Positions 33,002 to 39,620 of a DNA stretch of 56,283 nt are shown piece by piece. Source of the stretch: a virus. Under the pieces are notes generated by a model. That model had not been told where the DNA came from. It ran no database searches and saw nothing but the letters and a program-made list of their open reading frames with translations. Position numbers and translations under genes: made by a program. Each line of letters starts with the position of its first letter. Position 1 is the stretch's first letter. The stretch lies in UHGV virus genome UHGV-0315882; one strand, written 5' to 3'.

Positions 33002-33424
33002 TTATTTCTCTCTCAGTTGGTTAAGTTTCTTTCTAGAACATTTTAAGTTTTCTGATGAAGAAAAGTCAAGTGTCTTTTCAGAACGTGGATAGTAGTGTCT
33101 ATCCCAAGAAGTTTCGACATCGTTAATCAGTGATGCTAGATTACACAGGTCTGTACCACTTTGCAACCTCTTTTTAAGAGAATCTAGTAAAGCAACTGTG
33201 TCTTTGGCTTTACGTCTCGCTGTAGCAACATCTTTCATATGCTCAAATACAGAGCATTTTAAGTCATCTTCATAGTTTTCAGACAACTCTATTTCATGTT
33301 GTATATCAACCATTCTCCTGTGATGGTGAGCATATTCCCGTTGAGCAGCAATGTCAAGTTCTTCCAACTTCTGCAAAGCTCTAACAAAGTCAGCTATGTC
33401 TGGGTGAACAAACATTTTCTGCAT
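33002..33424 (-). CDS. hypothetical protein (140 aa)
   Basis: First minus-strand gene next to the divergent control region; AAAAGAGG RBS. Confidence 0.55.
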   Translation of the reverse strand: MQKMFVHPDIADFVRALQKLEELDIAAQREYAHHHRRMVDIQHEIELSENYEDDLKCSVFEHMKDVATARRKAKDTVALLDSLKKRLQSGTDLCNLASLINDVETSWDRHYYPRSEKTLDFSSSENLKCSRKKLNQLREK

Positions 33425-33681
33425 GTAAGCCTCTTTTAAGTAACTATTAAGTTTTAATCTTTTATCTTAACGTATTCTATACGTTATACTTTAAAGCTTT
33501 TTAAAAGCTATTAAATAATCTTTTAAGAGTTTTAAAGTATCTGTATAGTTAAACTGTTAAGTAACCTTTTAAGTAAAAACCCACTTCGCAAAGATTAACA
33601 CCTTGTCAAGTGCATTGTCAACTTGCTTTTTATAATTTTTTGCAGTAATGTATGAGGTTAATGATTTTAGAGGGAGTAAAA
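33425..33681. promoter_or_regulatory. AT-rich divergent control region
   Basis: Consensus TATAAT at 33631-33636 upstream of the polymerase ATG; repeated CTTTTAAG/TTTAAAG motifs; small inverted repeat ACGTAT/ATACGT (33471-33486). Confidence 0.45.
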
Positions 33682-36381
33682 ATGGAAAACGTAGATTTTA
33701 AAAACTTACATTTGGTTGGTGATACAGAAACTGATGGTTTACTCCTTGAGTTCACTAAAGTGCACGTAATGGCTTTCGCAGACTATAAATCTGACGATGA
33801 AGAGCCACCTGTATGGGTCTTTACAGATGAACCTATCCTCGGTCACAAGTATACCAAGTACATTAAGGGTGGCTTACGTGAAGGTGTTGAATTTGCGTTA
33901 AAGGCAAAACGTCTTTGCATCCATAATGGTCTCGGTTATGACTGGTGGGTTTTCAATCACATTGCACCTGATTTGTGGAACTTTGATAATCCAAAATGTA
34001 AGCCGTGGAGTAATTTCTTTCAGGATTCTCTTATCCAGTCTCGTGTTCAGTGGATGGATAGACCAACTCCAAAGGGCTATAAAGGTGCTCATGGTTTGGC
34101 TGCATGGGGTGCTCGTGTTGGTGTTCGTAAACCAGAGATTGAACATTGGGGTGTGTGGAATGCAGAAATCTTCACTCGTGTTGTAGAAGATATCCGTATT
34201 AACGCCAAAACTAAACGGGCGCTTGATAATGAATATCTCAAGCTTAAGAAGTGTGGCATAGACACTTATGAAACCTACATGCGAGCTAAAGAAACATCTT
34301 TCTGGATGAGTCAACAAGCTATCAATGGCTGGAAAGCTGATAAAGAGCTTATGGAGTTCCATGTAAAGGAACTTGACAAGTTGACTAATGAGCTTGCTTC
34401 AGAGGTTGAACCACATCTACCTCCAACTATTAAGACCAAAGGTAAAGTAACTGGTGAAGAGTTTGCAAAGGCTTGGAATGAGTATGTTGAAACATTTGGT
34501 CATGCAGATGGGTTGAAGAGAATCACCAAGTATCCTAAGACGAAGTACCGTCAACAGGTGCGTAACGGTGAGATGCAGACATACGAAATCAAACCATTTG
34601 GTAAGCCAACTACAAAGATTTTTAACATTGAAAAGAGAAATTGCTATACACCAACCAACTCTGTAACTGGTGAAGAGTACAAGGAAGGCTTTGTAGCAAT
34701 GAAGGATGCTCGTGCAATTTGCAATGAGTTGAATGCAAAGATTGGTAAGAAATGCAAAGACTGGAAGCCAGTGAAAACAGTCAAAACTGTGAAGTACTAT
34801 AACAGTCACGTTGTTAACCACTTTGAACTTGAGTCAAGTCGATACACAGGTTTGATTGATGCACCATATACACCAATTGATTTTGAAGTTTCTCGTATGA
34901 CTCAGGTAGCAGTTGTTAAAGACTACTTGAAATCAGTTGGTTGGATTCCAGATGACTGGAACTACAAGAAAGACTCAGATGGTCGCCCTGTCAAAGTTTG
35001 TCGTTTCAAAGACAATAAAAAGATGATTACAAAACATCCTAAGTGGCAGGAAATGGTTGAGCGGTGTGGTTTGAGCTATGTTGAACATGAAGGTGTACAG
35101 TACATTGAACATAACTGGTCTGTGAAGAAGTACACAGATTTGCTTGAGCCTTGCTTAATCCGTACTTCACCAAAGCTTACTGAGTCATCTTATGATACGA
35201 TTGAAGGTGAACTTGGACAGAAGATTGCTAAGTACTATACTTTGATGCACCGACGCAGAACTATTGAGAACTCAAAGGATGATGAAAAAGGTTGGTTGAA
35301 CCAGATTCGTCCTGATGGTCGCCTTAGTGCTGGTGCAATGGTGTTTGGTACTTCAACTGGACGTATGACACAATATGGTATTGTAAACGTACCGTCTGGT
35401 GCTGCTGTCTATGGGGAACCAATGAGGGCAGTGTGGATTTGTGAGGAAGGTACTAACGTTGTCTCTGTAGATATGAACTCAGCCCAGCTAGTTCTACTTT
35501 GTAACTTTATGGGTGATAAAGACTTCACCAAAGCGGTAACGCAAGGTAAAGAAGAAATTGAGTTCATTCGTCAAGAAGATGGACGCTATTACTGCAAACA
35601 CTTTGATGAGTACCTCAACCCAGAGATTGATAAGTACCTTCGCTATGACTCTGAGAATGACCTGTACGTTGTCTATTCAGGGACTGATGCACATACACTG
35701 AACAGTATTTACTTTAGCTTGAATGATGAGCAGGACATCTTGACTTGTCGAGCTACTCAGGATGAGAATCTTCTTCATGAGATTAGCAAAGGTCGTAAGA
35801 AAGCTAAGAATGGTATCTATGCACTGCTGTTCGGTGCAGGTGATGAGAAGTTTGCTAAGACGATTAAAGCTGCGACTACTCAGGAAGGTGCGCTGACTAA
35901 ACAGACTTACTTTATACGTTTGCCTAAAATTAAGAAGCTACTAGATGACTTGGAAGCTGACTACAAAGCAACTAAAAAGGCACTTGAAGAGGTGTTTGGT
36001 AAGACTGCTGCAATCTCTAAAGGGGGTTTTGTAAAGGTTGCTGGAGCTTGGTTGTGGTGTAAATCTCCACATAAGTTATTGAATTATTTGCTTATGGGTT
36101 CGGAAAGTCAGATTCAGAACGAGGCAATTAACCTTGCTTGCCGTCGTATGATTGACGAAGGTTTGATGAAGTTGAACGGTCGCAAACCCGCTATAGGTGC
36201 TCGTTTATTGTGCTCCTATCACGACGAGACAAGTTGGGAATGCCCAGAAAGTATGACGGCAGAGGTGAAGGCTGTTACTGATTGGTATTACGGGCAAGCC
36301 TCTAAGAACTTAGGACTAAAAAGTGAAACACTGGTAACTGGTACTGGTAAGGTTGGCAAATCGTGGTTGGAAGTGCATTAA
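33682..36381 (+). CDS. DNA polymerase, family A (T7-like) with 3'-5' exonuclease domain
   Basis: Start trimmed to MENVDF with GAGGGAG RBS; Exo I DTETDG; motifs resembling pol A motif A (VDMNSAQL), motif B (KNGIYALLFG) and motif C (YHDE). Confidence 0.85.
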   Translation: MENVDFKNLHLVGDTETDGLLLEFTKVHVMAFADYKSDDEEPPVWVFTDEPILGHKYTKYIKGGLREGVEFALKAKRLCIHNGLGYDWWVFNHIAPDLWNFDNPKCKPWSNFFQDSLIQSRVQWMDRPTPKGYKGAHGLAAWGARVGVRKPEIEHWGVWNAEIFTRVVEDIRINAKTKRALDNEYLKLKKCGIDTYETYMRAKETSFWMSQQAINGWKADKELMEFHVKELDKLTNELASEVEPHLPPTIKTKGKVTGEEFAKAWNEYVETFGHADGLKRITKYPKTKYRQQVRNGEMQTYEIKPFGKPTTKIFNIEKRNCYTPTNSVTGEEYKEGFVAMKDARAICNELNAKIGKKCKDWKPVKTVKTVKYYNSHVVNHFELESSRYTGLIDAPYTPIDFEVSRMTQVAVVKDYLKSVGWIPDDWNYKKDSDGRPVKVCRFKDNKKMITKHPKWQEMVERCGLSYVEHEGVQYIEHNWSVKKYTDLLEPCLIRTSPKLTESSYDTIEGELGQKIAKYYTLMHRRRTIENSKDDEKGWLNQIRPDGRLSAGAMVFGTSTGRMTQYGIVNVPSGAAVYGEPMRAVWICEEGTNVVSVDMNSAQLVLLCNFMGDKDFTKAVTQGKEEIEFIRQEDGRYYCKHFDEYLNPEIDKYLRYDSENDLYVVYSGTDAHTLNSIYFSLNDEQDILTCRATQDENLLHEISKGRKKAKNGIYALLFGAGDEKFAKTIKAATTQEGALTKQTYFIRLPKIKKLLDDLEADYKATKKALEEVFGKTAAISKGGFVKVAGAWLWCKSPHKLLNYLLMGSESQIQNEAINLACRRMIDEGLMKLNGRKPAIGARLLCSYHDETSWECPESMTAEVKAVTDWYYGQASKNLGLKSETLVTGTGKVGKSWLEVH

Positions 36382-36391
36382 TGGTGACAAA

Positions 36392-36919
36392 ATGATTACA
36401 CAAGAACGTTTAAAGGAGCTACTACACTATGACCCCGAAACAGGGGTCTTTACTTGGCTTCGTAGAGAGGGTGACTCAAGGGCTGTTAAAGTCTTTAATA
36501 GTAAGTACGCAGGACAGGTAGCGGGGAGCATCCAGATTGACTCAACTAGTCATAAGCAGATTACTATCTATTTTGACAAGAAAGCACATAAAGCACACAG
36601 ACTCGCATGGCTGTACGTGTATGGTAGGCTACCGAAAGGTGTTATTGACCATATTAATGGGGACTCCCTTGATAACAGGGTTGTAAACTTAAGAGAAGCA
36701 GATGACTGCCAAAGTGCTTGGAATAAAAGCAAACTATCCACCAATAAATCAGGCTATAAGGGTGTAAGCCTGAAGAAGAAGTCTGGTAGGTGGGTTGCGC
36801 AAATAAGCTATAAAGGTAAAAAGATGTCATTAGGTTACTATGACACACCAGAAGAGGCCCATAAAGCTTACTGTGAAGCTGCTATTAAACTCCACGGAGA
36901 ATTTGCAAAACTAAGTTGA
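36392..36919 (+). CDS. HNH homing endonuclease with C-terminal AP2 DNA-binding domain
   Basis: HRLAWLYVYG...DHINGDSLDNRVVNL (HNH) and YKGVS...GRWVAQI...YDTPEEAHKAY...HGEFA (AP2-like); start trimmed to MITQE. Confidence 0.65.
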   Translation: MITQERLKELLHYDPETGVFTWLRREGDSRAVKVFNSKYAGQVAGSIQIDSTSHKQITIYFDKKAHKAHRLAWLYVYGRLPKGVIDHINGDSLDNRVVNLREADDCQSAWNKSKLSTNKSGYKGVSLKKKSGRWVAQISYKGKKMSLGYYDTPEEAHKAYCEAAIKLHGEFAKLS

Positions 36920-36970
36920 CAAGGTGCTCATGGAAGAGTACCTTATACAATATCTTATATAGGAGGGCTT

Positions 36971-37180
36971 ATGAGCCACCGTGGAAGAACCCATGCAGCG
37001 ATGATGAAAGGTGCTTCAAAGGAGACTATCAAAAATCGTAAGCAGAAGTTGTTTGAGAGAATGAACAGGTTAATTGACAATTCATCTCTTTCAGGTTCTG
37101 AGAAGGTTTTCTTGAAAGGGAATCTGAAAAGTATTGCACAGGAACTTATGGATATTGAATTTTGGAGAAACCAAAAATGA
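36971..37180 (+). CDS. hypothetical protein (69 aa)
   Basis: AGGAGGG RBS upstream. Confidence 0.5.
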   Translation: MSHRGRTHAAMMKGASKETIKNRKQKLFERMNRLIDNSSLSGSEKVFLKGNLKSIAQELMDIEFWRNQK

Positions 37181-37389
37181 CTTATGAAGAAGCTGTTGAA
37201 GCAATGAAGCAAGGTAAGAAGGTTCGTAATGAGAACTTCACATCTGATGAGTTCTTTGAAATGAAAGATGGAAAGATTGTCTGTGAAATGGGTTACCCGA
37301 TGGCTTCATGGTATCGTGGTCTTGATTGGCAGAAATCTGGGTGGAGCATTGTGCAAGACTCTCCAAAAGCATCTGACTTATTCTTTTAA
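37177..37389 (+). CDS. DUF2829-like small protein (71 aa)
   Basis: Start at MTYEEAVEAMKQGKKV with GGAGA RBS and ATGA overlap; N-terminal motif resembles the DUF2829 family hallmark as recalled from memory. Confidence 0.4.
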   Translation: MTYEEAVEAMKQGKKVRNENFTSDEFFEMKDGKIVCEMGYPMASWYRGLDWQKSGWSIVQDSPKASDLFF

Positions 37390-37398
37390 GGAAAAGAT

Positions 37399-37605
37399 AT
37401 GGAAGCCTTAGTAAACTATATCTACTGTTATGATGTTGTTCACTCCACTACAACCGTAGCTCAATGTAACCCAATCGTCCCACGAGAGGGTGAGTTGGTT
37501 CGAATCGAGGGTTGGACTTACACTGTGGGGAGCATCATTCATAAGTTTGATGTTGCTGGTGATGTTCAAGTCATCGACGTAGAGATTGTTGGTAAAAGAA
37601 AATGA
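37399..37605 (+). CDS. hypothetical protein (68 aa)
   Basis: ORF in tight plus-strand array. Confidence 0.45.
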   Translation: MEALVNYIYCYDVVHSTTTVAQCNPIVPREGELVRIEGWTYTVGSIIHKFDVAGDVQVIDVEIVGKRK

Positions 37606-37787
37606 AAACAGAACCTGTAAAAACTGAAGATGGAAACATTGAGACATTCTCAATCACAGTCGCTGGTGATGAGTTCTCTTGCAAATGTGGGTGTAACTGC
37701 TTTCATAAACCAGATAAAACAAAACTTGGTCTTTATGAATGTAATAGTTGTGGGTTGAGGTTCTTAGACAAAAGCAAGGATATGTGA
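37602..37787 (+). CDS. small zinc-ribbon protein (61 aa), paralog of 38115-38306
   Basis: FSITVAGDEFSCKCGCNCFHKPDK...LYECNSC; shares this pattern with 38115-38306. Confidence 0.5.
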   Translation: MKTEPVKTEDGNIETFSITVAGDEFSCKCGCNCFHKPDKTKLGLYECNSCGLRFLDKSKDM

Positions 37788-38035
37788 TGAAGATAACTCA
37801 AGAAATGAAGAAGTTGTATGAGGGAAGTGTGAAGATTCCACCAAGAACTGATGCAAAGAAGTTACTATTCAACTCTTGGATGAATGATTGCACGTATGAG
37901 CAATACTACTTTAAAGTAATAGCATCAGGTGAAAGACCAGAATCACCAGAATATTATGAAAGTTACATAATGTGGCGTGATGAAAAATGTTTAGACTTCT
38001 ACGAAAGATACATGGAAGCAGTAAATTCAATTTAA
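37787..38035 (+). CDS. hypothetical protein (82 aa)
   Basis: Start trimmed to MKITQEM with AAGGA RBS. Confidence 0.45.
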   Translation: MKITQEMKKLYEGSVKIPPRTDAKKLLFNSWMNDCTYEQYYFKVIASGERPESPEYYESYIMWRDEKCLDFYERYMEAVNSI

Positions 38036-38114
38036 TCACTGGAGAAGACTTTGGTAGATGTGCTTGGCGCTACTTCTACTCAAAAGGCTGCATAGCTTGT
38101 GAGGCAAGAGATAA

Positions 38115-38306
38115 ATGAACAAAGAAGATAAGCATAAAAATGCTGTACGAACTCCTGATGGAAAGGTTCAATCCTTCATCCTGACAGTTGGTGGAAAGCC
38201 GTTTCGTTGCCACTGCGGAGCGAACTGTTTTCATAAACCAGATAAAAATGACTTAGAGCTTTACGCATGTAATGCTTGCAATACTTGGTATCACTCAGAG
38301 GAATAA
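38115..38306 (+). CDS. small zinc-ribbon protein (63 aa), paralog of 37602-37787
   Basis: FILTVGGKPFRCHCGANCFHKPDK...LYACNAC. Confidence 0.5.
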   Translation: MNKEDKHKNAVRTPDGKVQSFILTVGGKPFRCHCGANCFHKPDKNDLELYACNACNTWYHSEE

Positions 38307-38307
38307 A

Positions 38308-39411
38308 ATGACAATTCTATACAAACAAAATAAAGACGGCTCTTTCAACGTTTGGTCATGCGTTGCTGTAGGTGATAAAGTTGTTACAACCTACGGTAAA
38401 GAAAATGGCAAGATGATGTTTGAAGAGTATACAGCAGAACCTAAAAACATCGGTAAAAAGAATGAGCGTAACGCTGAACAGCAAGCTCTCTTTGAAGTTG
38501 CTGCAAAGTATAAAAAGCAGGTTGACCGCAAAGGTTATGCTTACACAAAAGAGTCTGCACAGAATACTGAGAAGGTAGGTGTACAGCTTGCTCATGATGC
38601 TGCAAAGGTTAGTCATGCAAAGTATTTGAAATTCCCTGCTGATGCTCAACCGAAGCTTGATGGTGTACGTTGTAGAATTTCAAGACACTTAAGCATTGGT
38701 AGCGTATTCACAGCATACTCTCGTGAGAATACTGTTTATAAAATCCCTACTGAACTCATACCTGACATTATGGCAATGTTAAGGCTCCACAAAGATGTTG
38801 ATGAGTTTGATGGAGAGATTTATGCTCATGGGTGGGACTTAGAAGATATCGTCTCTATGATTAAAAATGAAGACAATCCTGACAGACACCTGCTCAAGTT
38901 TTACTGGTATGATATCTGTGACAGTACTAAGACGTGGCCTGAGCGTAGAGATATCATTGAGACTTCACCATTGAATGGCTTTAGAGATGGCTGTAAAGTT
39001 GTCCCTGTTAAGTCTCGTCGTGTAAATTCTTGGGAAGAATTTGATGAAGCTCATGATAAGTGGGTTGAAGCTAAGTTTGAAGGTGCAATGTACCGTTCAA
39101 TCTCTGAAGACTCCTTCTATGAGTGTTGTCACCGTTCATACTTCTTGATTAAGCACAAGAAGATGCACACTGAAGAGTTTAAAGTAACTGGTGTCAAGAC
39201 TGATAAACGTGGACATGGCAAGTTCGTTGTAGAGACTCTTCCTAACGTCTTTGTAGATGTCTCATGGAAGACTACTCATGAGAAGAAACAGTATCTTGCT
39301 GAGCATCCTGAAGAGTTTATTGGGAAACCTTTAACGGTTCAGTTCCAGAAGATGACTCGTAAAGGTTCTTTACAGTTCCCTGTTGGGTTAGTTATTCGAG
39401 ACTACGAATAA
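38308..39411 (+). CDS. ATP-dependent DNA ligase-like protein
   Basis: Nucleotidyltransferase motif I KLDG (PKLDGVRC); GAGGA RBS; ~367 aa. Confidence 0.6.
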   Translation: MTILYKQNKDGSFNVWSCVAVGDKVVTTYGKENGKMMFEEYTAEPKNIGKKNERNAEQQALFEVAAKYKKQVDRKGYAYTKESAQNTEKVGVQLAHDAAKVSHAKYLKFPADAQPKLDGVRCRISRHLSIGSVFTAYSRENTVYKIPTELIPDIMAMLRLHKDVDEFDGEIYAHGWDLEDIVSMIKNEDNPDRHLLKFYWYDICDSTKTWPERRDIIETSPLNGFRDGCKVVPVKSRRVNSWEEFDEAHDKWVEAKFEGAMYRSISEDSFYECCHRSYFLIKHKKMHTEEFKVTGVKTDKRGHGKFVVETLPNVFVDVSWKTTHEKKQYLAEHPEEFIGKPLTVQFQKMTRKGSLQFPVGLVIRDYE

Positions 39412-39418
39412 AAAGTTG

Positions 39419-39446
39419 TTGACATAGAAAATTTGGTGAGTATACT
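39419..39446 (+). promoter_or_regulatory. Strong sigma70-like promoter
   Basis: TTGACA (39419-39424), 16 bp spacer, TATACT (39441-39446). Confidence 0.55.
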
Positions 39447-39620
39447 GAGCAGCATAAAACAACAGGTACTCACCAGCATCACTTAAGAGTCTTCTAAGAG
39501 GGTTTTAAGTGATGTATTGCACGGTAAAGTGATGTGAAGTCTGGTTTGGCATGGTGTGGTCTGGTATGGAAGGATGGCAGTAGCCTTATAAAAAATCTGC
39601 CAAATAAGCTATAAAATCTG

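What the first reader, a model, noticed from the sequence alone, without database searches (positions are those of the whole stretch)
36392..36919. HNH-AP2 homing endonuclease immediately downstream of the DNA polymerase gene
The ORF combines an HNH nuclease motif with an AP2-type DNA-binding domain and starts 11 bp after the polymerase stop. Free-standing homing endonucleases next to essential replication genes are classic mobile-element insertions.
Basis: partly seen in the sequence, partly recalled or inferred. Interest (0 to 1): 0.4.

Follow-up and report, generated by a model that had tools for sequence, protein, structure and literature searches.

The report
Homing endonuclease gene beside phage polymerase
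This is an ordinary, already annotated selfish gene: an HNH-AP2 homing endonuclease sits just after the DNA polymerase gene of a Felix O1-like phage, and it is present in some close relatives and cleanly absent from others.

Summary
Window 36392..36919 (+) is an intact 175-aa ORF with Pfam HNH_3 (E 1e-14) and AP2 (E 7e-14) domains. It starts 10 nt after the TAA of a 909-aa DNA polymerase. The window is a Felixounavirus.

In 39 related loci (a few are duplicates), 18 have an empty site where only about 6 nt separate the pol stop from a conserved TTGACA element. Nineteen carry an HNH-AP2 gene at exactly this site, in at least seven divergent allele groups (46-99% aa identity). Felix O1 ORF95 is one of them.

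A close relative, L011 (pol 96% nt identical), is empty. phiSUSP1, from another genus, shares the gene plus the last ~230 nt of pol at 96-97% identity, against 80-92% for the rest of pol. That pattern fits transfer with co-conversion of the flank.

Catalytic residues are invariant, dN/dS is 0.04-0.17, and the AF2 model's best PDB match is I-HmuI. Cleavage and homing themselves are untested.

The same gene (98.5% nt) is already annotated as a homing endonuclease in GenBank, so novelty is nil and interest is low.

Two side observations are unexplained. A GACCCC-N6-GGGGTC hairpin and the last ~70 nt are conserved at the DNA level across all alleles.

The parts
36392..36919 (+). Free-standing HNH-AP2 endonuclease gene (175 aa plus TGA stop)
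   Evidence: ORF and sequence; Pfam HNH_3 + AP2; PHROG 99; 98.5% nt identical to dune_61 'putative HNH homing endonuclease'
36590..36700 (+). HNH_3 (His-Me finger) nuclease core, aa 67-103; D86-H87, N95, N99-L100-R101
   Evidence: Pfam. D86, H87, N99, L100 and R101 are invariant and N95 nearly invariant in 47 homologs and in the site's alleles. The AF2 model shows a beta-beta-alpha unit: strands 84-87 and 100-103, helix 105-110. Best PDB fold match is I-HmuI 1U3E.
36749..36898 (+). AP2 DNA-binding domain, aa 120-169
   Evidence: Pfam AP2; PDB sequence hit to WRI1 AP2, E 1.9e-7; fold matches to AtERF1 and TEM1 AP2 domains at 0.8-1.2 A rmsd
36383..36915 (+). The inserted cassette, defined against empty-site relatives (about 533 bp replacing about 5-6 nt, TTAGTA)
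   Evidence: blastn break points: window 36382 matches L011/L014 3601 and window 36916 matches 3607; junction alignments
36383..36387 (+). SD-like GGTGA, 4 nt upstream of the ATG. No promoter consensus match lies between pol and the gene, so co-transcription with pol is likely.
   Evidence: Sequence; a GGTG followed by 6 nt and the ATG is kept in alleles A, A3, D and E; no promoter-like site there
36431..36448 (+). Hairpin/palindrome GACCCC-GAAACA-GGGGTC inside the gene (codons D14 P15 ... G18 V19), followed by TCTTTACTT; function unknown
   Evidence: Flagged as terminator-like. Unique in the window. The stem is identical in all 19 occupied loci while the loop varies. It uses rare codons. None of 62 unrelated HNH-AP2 genes has a perfect stem there.
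36848..36919 (+). 3' terminal ~70 nt shared almost identically by all alleles at this site (last 22 aa, EEAHKAYCEAAIKLHGEFAKLS)
   Evidence: Protein alignment. The last 72 nt are 82-97% identical across alleles, against 47-61% for the preceding 72 nt in alleles B, C, D and E.
36916..36970 (+). Conserved intergenic element after the gene: TTGACA (overlaps the gene's TGA stop), a hairpin-like GGTGCTC/GAGTACC, TATACA, and the AGGAGG RBS of the next gene. Annotated as a promoter in phage AYO145A, but with a 22-nt spacer.
   Evidence: Conserved in empty and occupied loci alike; AYO145A annotation; unique in the window; not picked up by the 16-18 nt spacer promoter scan
36152..36381 (+). 3' end of pol that travels with the endonuclease gene (putative co-conversion tract). 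The last 21 nt differ from most empty-site phages by synonymous changes only.
   Evidence: Sliding identity to phiSUSP1 is 96-97% here and across the HNH gene, against 80-92% for most of the rest of pol; haplotype table; L011 and mio are recombinants with break points in this stretch
33652..36381 (+). DNA polymerase gene (909 aa), the essential neighbour
   Evidence: ORF; annotated as DNA polymerase in relatives
36971..37180 (+). Felix01p174 homolog (69 aa), the first gene after the site in both empty and occupied genomes
   Evidence: ORF; tblastn mapping in the loci; annotations

Best explanation
The ORF is a free-standing homing endonuclease gene of the HNH(HNN)-AP2 family. It is inserted in the few bases between the stop codon of the DNA polymerase gene and the conserved control element of the next gene in a Felix O1-like phage.

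Inferred mechanism:
1. The gene is co-transcribed with pol and translated from its own weak SD.
2. The protein binds DNA through its AP2 domain and N-terminal beta region and cuts with a single His-Me finger active site. It probably makes a nick, as I-HmuI does, or a staggered break.
3. In a mixed infection it cuts a related phage that lacks the gene, at or near the pol 3' end / intergenic junction.
4. Repair from the endonuclease-carrying genome copies the gene and a variable stretch of the pol 3' end into the recipient.
5. Its own genome escapes cutting because the insertion splits the site, because of silent changes in the last codons of pol, or both.

Shown here: the domain architecture, intact catalytic residues, purifying selection, a precise presence/absence polymorphism, several alleles at one site, and a flank-plus-gene block shared across genera.

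Inferred only: cleavage, the location of the target, nick versus double-strand break, and current mobility.
For: Domains and fold:
- Pfam HNH_3 and AP2 both score above their gathering thresholds; PHROG 99 also matches.
- The AF2 model is confident (pLDDT 94.8). Its best PDB match is the homing endonuclease I-HmuI, and its C-terminal part matches plant AP2 domains at about 1 A rmsd.
- D86, H87, N99, L100 and R101 are invariant in 47 homologs.

Presence/absence:
- An artificial empty-site query matched many relatives in a single piece. Annotated examples are Ro111lw, AYO145A, EcSzw-2 and Barry.
- 18 of 39 loci are empty and 19 are occupied.
- The boundaries map to window 36383..36915.

Mobility signatures:
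- At least seven allele groups occupy the same site, including Felix O1 ORF95.
- phiSUSP1 (Suspvirus) is 96-97% identical over the gene plus about 230 nt of pol, against 80-92% for most of the rest of pol.
- Recombination break points sit next to the site in L011 and mio.

Function maintained:
- dN/dS is 0.04-0.17 among A-type alleles, and every allele examined is an intact ORF.

Literature:
- Felix O1 carries six HNH genes (PMC3185647).
- HNH-AP2 is a recognised homing endonuclease family that includes a Felix 01 protein (PMC4237383 citing Magnani 2004).
- Such genes cluster next to DNA polymerase genes, and distinct ones replace each other at one locus (PMC10448857).
Against: No biochemical or genetic data exist for this protein or, as far as I could find, for any Felixounavirus HNH.

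No decayed or pseudogenised copy was seen among the 19 occupied loci, and dN/dS is low. That is not what a simple invade-then-decay homing cycle predicts. It would also fit a gene that benefits the phage.

The flank polymorphisms linked to the gene could reflect shared ancestry rather than co-conversion. Other alleles at the site have flanks close to those of empty sites, so no immunity-conferring substitution can be named.

The overall TM-score to I-HmuI is low (0.38). The match rests on local similarity of the domains, not on their arrangement.
Confidence: 0.8

Rival explanations
1. A domesticated or beneficial nuclease. The gene descends from a homing endonuclease but is now kept because it helps the phage, for example by excluding co-infecting relatives, processing replication or recombination intermediates, or degrading competitor DNA. 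On this view it does not spread selfishly.
For: dN/dS is 0.04-0.17 and every allele examined is intact, with no pseudogenes among the 19 occupied loci. The site is occupied in roughly 40% of GenBank relatives by maintained alleles. PMC10448857 notes that homing cannot be told apart from domestication by bioinformatics alone.
Against: Eighteen of 39 loci come from viable isolated or assembled phages that lack any gene at the site, so it is dispensable. Marker exclusion is itself a consequence of homing, so this rival overlaps the main explanation. The position is not tied to a packaging or repair module.
Confidence: 0.12
2. A DNA-binding regulator. The AP2 domain acts as a transcription factor (as in plant AP2/ERF proteins or phage CasPR repressors) and the HNH part is inactive or accessory. 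The protein might bind the GC-rich palindrome in its own gene or the conserved element just downstream.
For: AP2 domains without nuclease activity act as repressors in phages (bioRxiv 10.64898/2026.02.23.707548). A conserved CCCC/GGGG palindrome lies in the gene and a conserved control-like element lies right after it.
Against: The catalytic D-H...N...N residues are invariant across 47 homologs and across all alleles at the site. The fold matches an active endonuclease. The presence/absence pattern is that of a mobile gene. CasPRs pair AP2 with CapR domains, not with HNH.
Confidence: 0.05
3. An intron-encoded endonuclease (like I-HmuI in the SPO1 pol intron) or the remnant of an intein, meaning it is part of pol rather than a free-standing gene.
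For: The closest solved structure, I-HmuI, is encoded in a group I intron of a phage DNA polymerase gene (its intron location is from my own knowledge). Some relatives do have an insertion inside pol, and Meda annotates a joined pol CDS.
Against: The gene lies after the pol stop codon. In empty-site phages pol ends at the same codon. No Rfam family, group I introns included, matches 33400-39600 even at E <= 1. The reading frame differs from that of pol.
Confidence: 0.02

Closest known systems
HNH homing endonuclease genes annotated at the same site in other felixounaviruses (dune_61/QHR74342.1; JohannRWettstein; SP22; phiSUSP1; Felix O1 ORF95/NP_944955.1; Meda_038)
   Same: Same position (directly after pol), same HNH_3+AP2 architecture and the same last 22 residues. 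dune is 98.5% nt and 99% aa identical.
   Different: Nothing material for the A-type copies. Felix O1 ORF95 (C-type) and Meda_038 (B-type) are only 46-47% identical (tblastn) and overlap the pol stop instead of following a 10-nt spacer.
HNH(HNN)-AP2 homing endonuclease family (Magnani et al. 2004; the Xanthomonas phage Xp10/OP1/Xop411 'HNN-AP2' genes; IPA-HNH genes of ICP1)
   Same: N-terminal HNH with the HRLAW / DH / DNR / NLRE boxes and no Cys dyads, plus a C-terminal AP2 domain. Free-standing, multi-copy, sporadic, and often next to DNA polymerase genes.
   Different: The ICP1 IPA-HNH domains are too divergent for the Pfam HNH_3 model, whereas this one matches it strongly. In the Xanthomonas phages the insertion sites vary between phages; here one site is reused by many alleles.
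I-HmuI (SPO1; PDB 1U3E) and its relatives I-HmuII and I-BasI
   Same: Best structural match (Foldseek E 4.9e-4, probability 1.00). A monomeric HNN-type His-Me finger preceded by a beta-sheet DNA-binding region. The associated gene is a phage DNA polymerase. The I-HmuI group are nicking enzymes (from my own knowledge).
   Different: I-HmuI is encoded in a group I intron and has a helix-turn-helix C-terminal domain rather than AP2 (from my own knowledge). This gene is free-standing, after the stop codon, with no intron. Sequence identity is 18% and overall TM-score 0.38.
T4-type free-standing homing endonucleases (MobE, SegF, SegG)
   Same: Free-standing genes placed between or beside essential genes. 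They spread by cleaving the neighbouring gene of endonuclease-less relatives, with co-conversion of flanking markers (from my own knowledge; general picture in PMC10448857).
   Different: Mob proteins pair HNH_3 with a zinc finger and Seg proteins are GIY-YIG enzymes; neither has an AP2 domain. Their cleavage sites are known from experiment, while none is known here.

Membership tests
HNH_3 / His-Me finger endonuclease | Match to the family profile above the curated threshold | tested here: met
   PF13392 scores 54.2 bits against a cutoff of 24.8, aa 67-103
HNH_3 / His-Me finger endonuclease | Catalytic Asp-His pair and the two Asn of the H-N-N motif are present | tested here: met
   D86, H87 and N99 are invariant and N95 is >=90% conserved in a 47-sequence alignment. 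All are kept in alleles A, B and C.
HNH_3 / His-Me finger endonuclease | Beta-beta-alpha-metal fold | tested here: met
   The AF2 model (pLDDT 94.8) has strands 84-87 and 100-103 and helix 105-110. The top PDB match is I-HmuI 1U3E, E 4.9e-4.
HNH_3 / His-Me finger endonuclease | Divalent-metal-dependent DNA cleavage | not testable with these tools
   Needs purified protein and a substrate
AP2 DNA-binding domain | Profile match above the threshold, and a three-stranded sheet packed on a helix | tested here: met
   PF00847 scores 52.4 bits against a cutoff of 33.3. PDB sequence hit to WRI1, E 1.9e-7. Strands 125-128, 133-140 and 143-150 and helix 153-171. Superposes on 1GCC and 7ET4 at 0.8-1.2 A.
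AP2 DNA-binding domain | Sequence-specific DNA binding | not testable with these tools
A preference for GC-rich sites is known for the family (PMC10448857).
Free-standing homing endonuclease gene | An independent ORF in an intergenic position, not inside an intron or intein | tested here: met
   It starts 10 nt after the pol TAA and ends in the TTGACA of the next element. No Rfam intron match. Pol ends at the same codon in empty genomes.
Free-standing homing endonuclease gene | Sporadic presence/absence at one site among close relatives, with precise boundaries | tested here: met
   18 loci empty and 19 occupied out of 39. L011 has 96% identical pol and is empty. About 58 A-like and 50 B-like records among about 264-284 GenBank records.
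Free-standing homing endonuclease gene | Evidence of lateral transfer with co-conversion of flanking sequence | tested here: inconclusive
   In phiSUSP1 the gene plus about 230 nt of pol is 96-97% identical, against 80-92% elsewhere in pol. Recombinant flanks occur in L011 and mio. This is suggestive, but general recombination or shared ancestry is not excluded.
Free-standing homing endonuclease gene | Site-specific cleavage of the endonuclease-less allele near the insertion point | not testable with these tools
   Needs an in vitro cleavage assay on empty-site DNA
Free-standing homing endonuclease gene | Over-representation of the gene among progeny of mixed infections | not testable with these tools
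   Needs phage crosses
Intron-encoded HNH endonuclease (I-HmuI type) | Located within a self-splicing intron that interrupts the host gene | tested here: not met
   The gene lies downstream of the pol stop, and no group I or group II intron model matches

The most novel reading that the evidence does not exclude
The site just after pol may be a multi-allelic arena rather than a simple insertion site. At least seven divergent HNH-AP2 alleles keep two nucleotide-level elements in common: a 5' GACCCC-N6-GGGGTC hairpin built from codons that are rare in this phage, and a near-identical 3' ~70 nt. On this reading these are functional cis elements. The hairpin could be an expression attenuator or an AP2 self-binding site. 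The two patches could serve as homology anchors that let the variable, specificity-determining core be swapped as a cassette between competing endonuclease genes.
Probability: 0.2. Interest if true: 0.45.

Novelty: already known. Interest (0 to 1): 0.18.

Why it matters
It matters little as a discovery. The same gene at the same place is already annotated as an HNH homing endonuclease in dozens of Felixounavirus genomes. Felix O1's HNH genes and the HNH-AP2 family were described years ago.

It is useful as a clean example. The locus offers natural empty, occupied and alternatively occupied alleles in easily grown coliphages and Salmonella phages. That makes it a convenient system for testing homing, turnover of competing endonuclease genes at one site, and how such genes shape mosaic boundaries in phages used for therapy and biocontrol.

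The conserved hairpin and the shared 3' end are the only features that might repay further work.

Tried and rejected
1. Paralogs in the window. A tblastn of the protein against the whole 56-kb window found only the gene itself, so there is no second HNH-AP2 copy here.

2. Intron or intein reading. Rejected on the junction alignments and the absence of any Rfam hit.

3. RNA structure sequestering the start. A fold of 36350-36470 was no more stable than shuffled sequence (z = -0.36). Only the short internal hairpin is notable.

4. The four-codon mini-ORF (ATGGTGACAAAATGA) bridging the pol stop and the HNH start. It is kept in alleles A, D and E but absent from A3, which keeps only the GGTG. I read this stretch as an SD sequence, not as a coupling ORF.

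5. The element after the gene as a canonical sigma-70 promoter. It has a 22-nt spacer and fails the 16-18 nt scan, so 'promoter' rests only on the AYO145A annotation.

6. The hairpin as a by-product of the YDPxTGxF protein motif. Rejected, because none of 62 unrelated family members has a perfect stem there.

7. Naming a specific immunity substitution or cleavage site from flank polymorphisms. Abandoned. Only the last pol codon tracks occupancy (CAT in most occupied loci, CAC in all empty ones), and other alleles have flanks like those of empty sites.

8. Magnani et al. 2004 could not be read. It is cited second-hand.

Full report
WHAT IS THERE

Window 36392..36919 (+) is an intact ORF of 175 codons plus a TGA stop. 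The DNA polymerase ORF (33652..36381, 909 aa) ends with TAA at 36379-36381. Ten nucleotides (TGGTGACAAA) separate it from the ATG, and they contain an SD-like GGTGA. The mechanical ORF list extends the frame to a TTG at 36353 inside pol. The ATG is the start annotated in the nearly identical gene of phage dune.

Pfam finds HNH_3 at aa 67-103 (54.2 bits, cutoff 24.8) and AP2 at aa 120-169 (52.4 bits, cutoff 33.3). PHROG 99 'HNH endonuclease' matches at E 2.6e-73.

CONTEXT

The pol-to-ligase segment matches 264 phage records, nearly all Felixounavirus and other Ounavirinae that infect Escherichia, Salmonella, Shigella or Citrobacter. The best hits are 96-97% identical. The window is thus part of a Felix O1-like myovirus genome. 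The ligase is at 38272..39411, and a string of small ORFs lies between it and the endonuclease gene.

PRESENCE AND ABSENCE

I built an artificial empty site by joining the 300 bp on each side of the ORF and searched it against GenBank phages. Many relatives match it in one uninterrupted piece. Examples are Ro111lw, AYO145A, EcSzw-2, finno, CL1 and Barry. Their annotations show pol followed after about 61 bp by the Felix01p174 homolog, with no gene in between. Other relatives match in two pieces separated by about 530 bp (this allele) or about 500 bp (a different HNH gene).

I also fetched 29 IMG/VR loci using the pol C-terminus. With the 10 GenBank loci that gives 39 loci, a few of which are the same phage in both collections. 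Their states are as follows:
- 18 are empty.
- 19 carry an HNH-AP2 gene at exactly this position.
- 2 distant Erwinia-type loci differ altogether.

In GenBank as a whole, 58 records carry an A-like gene over at least 80% of its length and 50 carry a B-like gene. That is out of about 264-284 records with this pol end.

The closest pol outside the A-type group belongs to IMG/VR contig 3300045988_010904 (L011). Its pol is 96% nt identical, and the last 199 residues are identical in protein. Its site is empty.

INSERTION ANATOMY

Empty sites read ...GAAGTACAC TAA TTAGTA TTGACAAGGTGCTCA... The window reads ...GAAGTGCAT TAA TGGTGACAAA ATG...(gene)...AAACTAAG TTGACAAGGTGCTCA.... By blastn the break points are window 36382/36383 and 36915/36916. 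About 533 bp therefore replace about 6 nt.

The gene's TGA stop lies inside the TTGACA hexamer. That hexamer begins a ~55-nt element (36916-36970) that is conserved in empty and occupied genomes alike. The element ends in the AGGAGG ribosome-binding site of the next gene. AYO145A annotates it as a promoter, but its spacer is 22 nt and a standard scan does not call it.

The insertion damages neither pol nor the downstream element. No Rfam family, group I introns included, matches the region, so this is a free-standing gene and not an intron ORF.

MANY ALLELES AT ONE SITE

The occupied loci fall into at least seven groups by tblastn identity to the window protein:

| Allele | Examples | aa identity to window |
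|---|---|---|
| A | window, dune, phiSUSP1, SUSP2 | >=95% |
| A2 | BPS17W1 | 86% |
| A3 | L023 | 76% |
| D | L022, L039 | 55-56% |
| E | L025 | 50% |
| B | Meda, VSe11, Si3, Michonne | 45-47% |
| C | Felix O1 ORF95/NP_944955 and three contigs | 45-47% |

Alleles A, D and E follow a 10-nt spacer. A3 follows a 9-nt spacer. B overlaps the pol stop (TGATG). C overlaps pol by 19 nt. This looks like the turnover of distinct endonuclease genes at one locus that has been described for ICP1 phages (PMC10448857).

SIGNS OF MOBILITY

phiSUSP1 is classified in a different genus (Suspvirus). Over most of pol it is 80-92% identical to the window. Over the last ~230 nt of pol and the whole HNH gene it is 96-97% identical. 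A block made of the gene plus its upstream flank has therefore moved between lineages, as expected from homing with co-conversion.

L011 and mio carry the HNH-linked pol haplotype up to a point 21 nt and about 95 nt, respectively, before the stop. They then switch to the empty-site haplotype. Recombination break points thus pile up at the site.

In the A-type the last seven pol codons differ from the common empty haplotype at seven positions, all of them synonymous (TCG/AGC, TTG/CTT, GTG/GTA, CAT/CAC). Only the final CAT/CAC difference tracks occupancy across the non-C alleles (L023 is the exception). I therefore cannot name an immunity substitution or a cleavage site.

IS THE PROTEIN FUNCTIONAL?

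Every allele examined is an intact ORF. dN/dS against the window allele is 0.04 (dune), 0.14 (phiSUSP1), 0.17 (A2) and 0.12 (A3).

The family is very large: 7001 database clusters at E <= 1e-5, most of them carrying both Pfam domains. In an alignment of 47 members, D86, H87, N99, L100 and R101 are invariant and N95 is nearly so.

An AlphaFold2 model built on that alignment is confident (pLDDT 94.8, pTM 0.83). It shows a beta-beta-alpha unit at residues 84-110 and a three-stranded sheet plus helix at residues 125-171.

Its best match in the PDB is the HNH homing endonuclease I-HmuI (1U3E; E 4.9e-4, probability 1.00). The overall TM-score is low at 0.38, as expected for a flexible multi-domain protein. 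The C-terminal part superposes on plant AP2 domains at 0.8-1.2 A, and the AP2 domain also matches WRI1 by sequence.

By analogy with I-HmuI, which to my knowledge is a monomeric nicking enzyme, a single-strand nick is the most likely chemistry. This is inference only.

MOST LIKELY MECHANISM

This is a free-standing homing endonuclease gene. It is co-transcribed with pol, since no promoter-like site lies between them, and translated from a weak SD. In mixed infections it cuts endonuclease-less relatives at or near the pol-end / intergenic junction. Recombinational repair then copies the gene and a variable length of the pol 3' end into the recipient. The carrier genome is protected because the insertion separates the two halves of the junction, because of silent changes in the pol terminus, or both.

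Confidence is about 0.8 that it is or recently was a homing endonuclease gene. Confidence in the details (nick, target position) is much lower.

RIVALS

- A domesticated, beneficial nuclease (about 0.12) fits the low dN/dS and the lack of decayed copies. However, the gene is absent from half of the viable relatives.
- A pure AP2 regulator (about 0.05) is unlikely given the invariant catalytic residues. Phage AP2 repressors such as CasPRs pair AP2 with CapR domains, not with HNH.
- An intron or intein reading is excluded by the junctions and by Rfam.

COMPARISON WITH WHAT IS KNOWN

The gene is already annotated as '(putative) HNH homing endonuclease' in dune, JohannRWettstein, SP22, DaR-2019b, phiSUSP1 and others at 95-98.5% nt identity. 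Felix O1 was reported to carry six free-standing HNH genes (PMC3185647), and one of them (ORF95) sits at this very site. The HNH-AP2 combination was described as a homing endonuclease family that includes a Felix 01 protein (Magnani et al. 2004, as cited in PMC4237383, and in PMC10448857). The HNN-AP2 genes of Xanthomonas phages show the same sequence boxes (HRLAW, DH, DNR, NLRE) (PMC2248197). HNH-AP2 genes are reported next to DNA polymerase genes in 29% of neighbourhoods.

The finding is therefore a correct identification of a known thing.

UNEXPLAINED SIDE OBSERVATIONS

(a) Conserved hairpin. Codons 14-19 (DPETGV) form a perfect hairpin, GACCCC-N6-GGGGTC, at 36431-36448.
- The stem is identical in all 19 occupied loci and in all seven allele groups, while the loop varies. 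This holds even though the deeper allele pairs (B, C, D, E versus A) have synonymous divergence above 1.
- The stem uses CCC (1 of 45 Pro codons in pol plus ligase) and GGG (8 of 85 Gly codons).
- None of 62 unrelated HNH-AP2 genes with the same protein motif has a perfect stem.
- An exact-pattern scan of IMG/VR found 51 hits, 37 of them in HNH-AP2 ORFs. These include a second paralog locus in Felix-like phages and a few other phage groups.
- The promoter/terminator scan flags it as terminator-like.

(b) Shared 3' end. The last ~70 nt (22 aa) are nearly identical across alleles whose preceding 72 nt are only 47-61% identical.

Either feature could reflect selection on a cis element (an attenuator, a self-binding site for the GC-preferring AP2 domain, or a homology anchor for cassette exchange). 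Either could also reflect patchy gene conversion. I could not decide between these.

VERDICT

The gene is already known, and the interest is low.

Noticed in passing
window 36431-36448 (also L001, L006, L010, L012, L021-L025, L027, L029, L032-L035, L038, L039): A perfect 6-bp hairpin/palindrome, GACCCC-N6-GGGGTC, lies in the 5' part of the HNH gene. Its stem is identical in all seven divergent allele groups while the loop varies. It is built from codons that are rare in this phage, and none of 62 unrelated HNH-AP2 genes has it. It is followed by a T-rich run and is flagged terminator-like. Its function is unknown.
   Followed up: partly
window 36848-36919: The last ~70 nt (22 aa) of the gene are nearly identical at the DNA level in alleles that are otherwise only 46-55% identical in protein. 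This suggests gene conversion, or a shared recombination anchor with the downstream conserved element.
   Followed up: partly
window 36916-36970: A ~55-nt intergenic element (TTGACA, then the imperfect inverted repeat GGTGCTC/GAGTACC, then TATACA, then AGGAGG) is almost invariant across empty and occupied relatives and is unique in the window. AYO145A annotates it as a promoter, but the spacer is 22 nt, so its real nature (promoter, operator or RNA element) is open.
   Followed up: partly
window ~35822-35828 (inside pol); L005, L007, L026, L030, L035: Several relatives (Barry, VSe11, BPS17W1 and others) have an ~810-bp insertion at this point that splits pol and encodes another endonuclease-like ORF. 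The window's pol is uninterrupted here. In those relatives identity to the window drops from about 94% upstream to about 80% downstream of the insertion point.
   Followed up: no
window 37602-37787 and 38115-38306: Two small paralogous ORFs (61 and 63 aa) share a Cys-rich motif (F.ITV.G..F.C.CG.NCFHKPDK..L.LY.CN.C), probably a zinc ribbon. They lie in the variable stretch between the endonuclease gene and the ligase, and the second overlaps the ligase start.
   Followed up: no
window 36971-38270 versus L001-L035: The run of small ORFs between the site and the ligase is highly mosaic among relatives. Examples are an extra gene after pol in mio and UAB_Phi87, and different sets of 50-95-aa ORFs. 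Some relatives also annotate the ligase in two or three pieces.
   Followed up: no
L040, L045, L047, L055 and other IMG/VR loci: The same GACCCC-N6-GGGGTCTT pattern also occurs outside HNH genes in about 31-32% GC phage contigs, in very short ORFs. These are probably ordinary intrinsic terminators.
   Followed up: no
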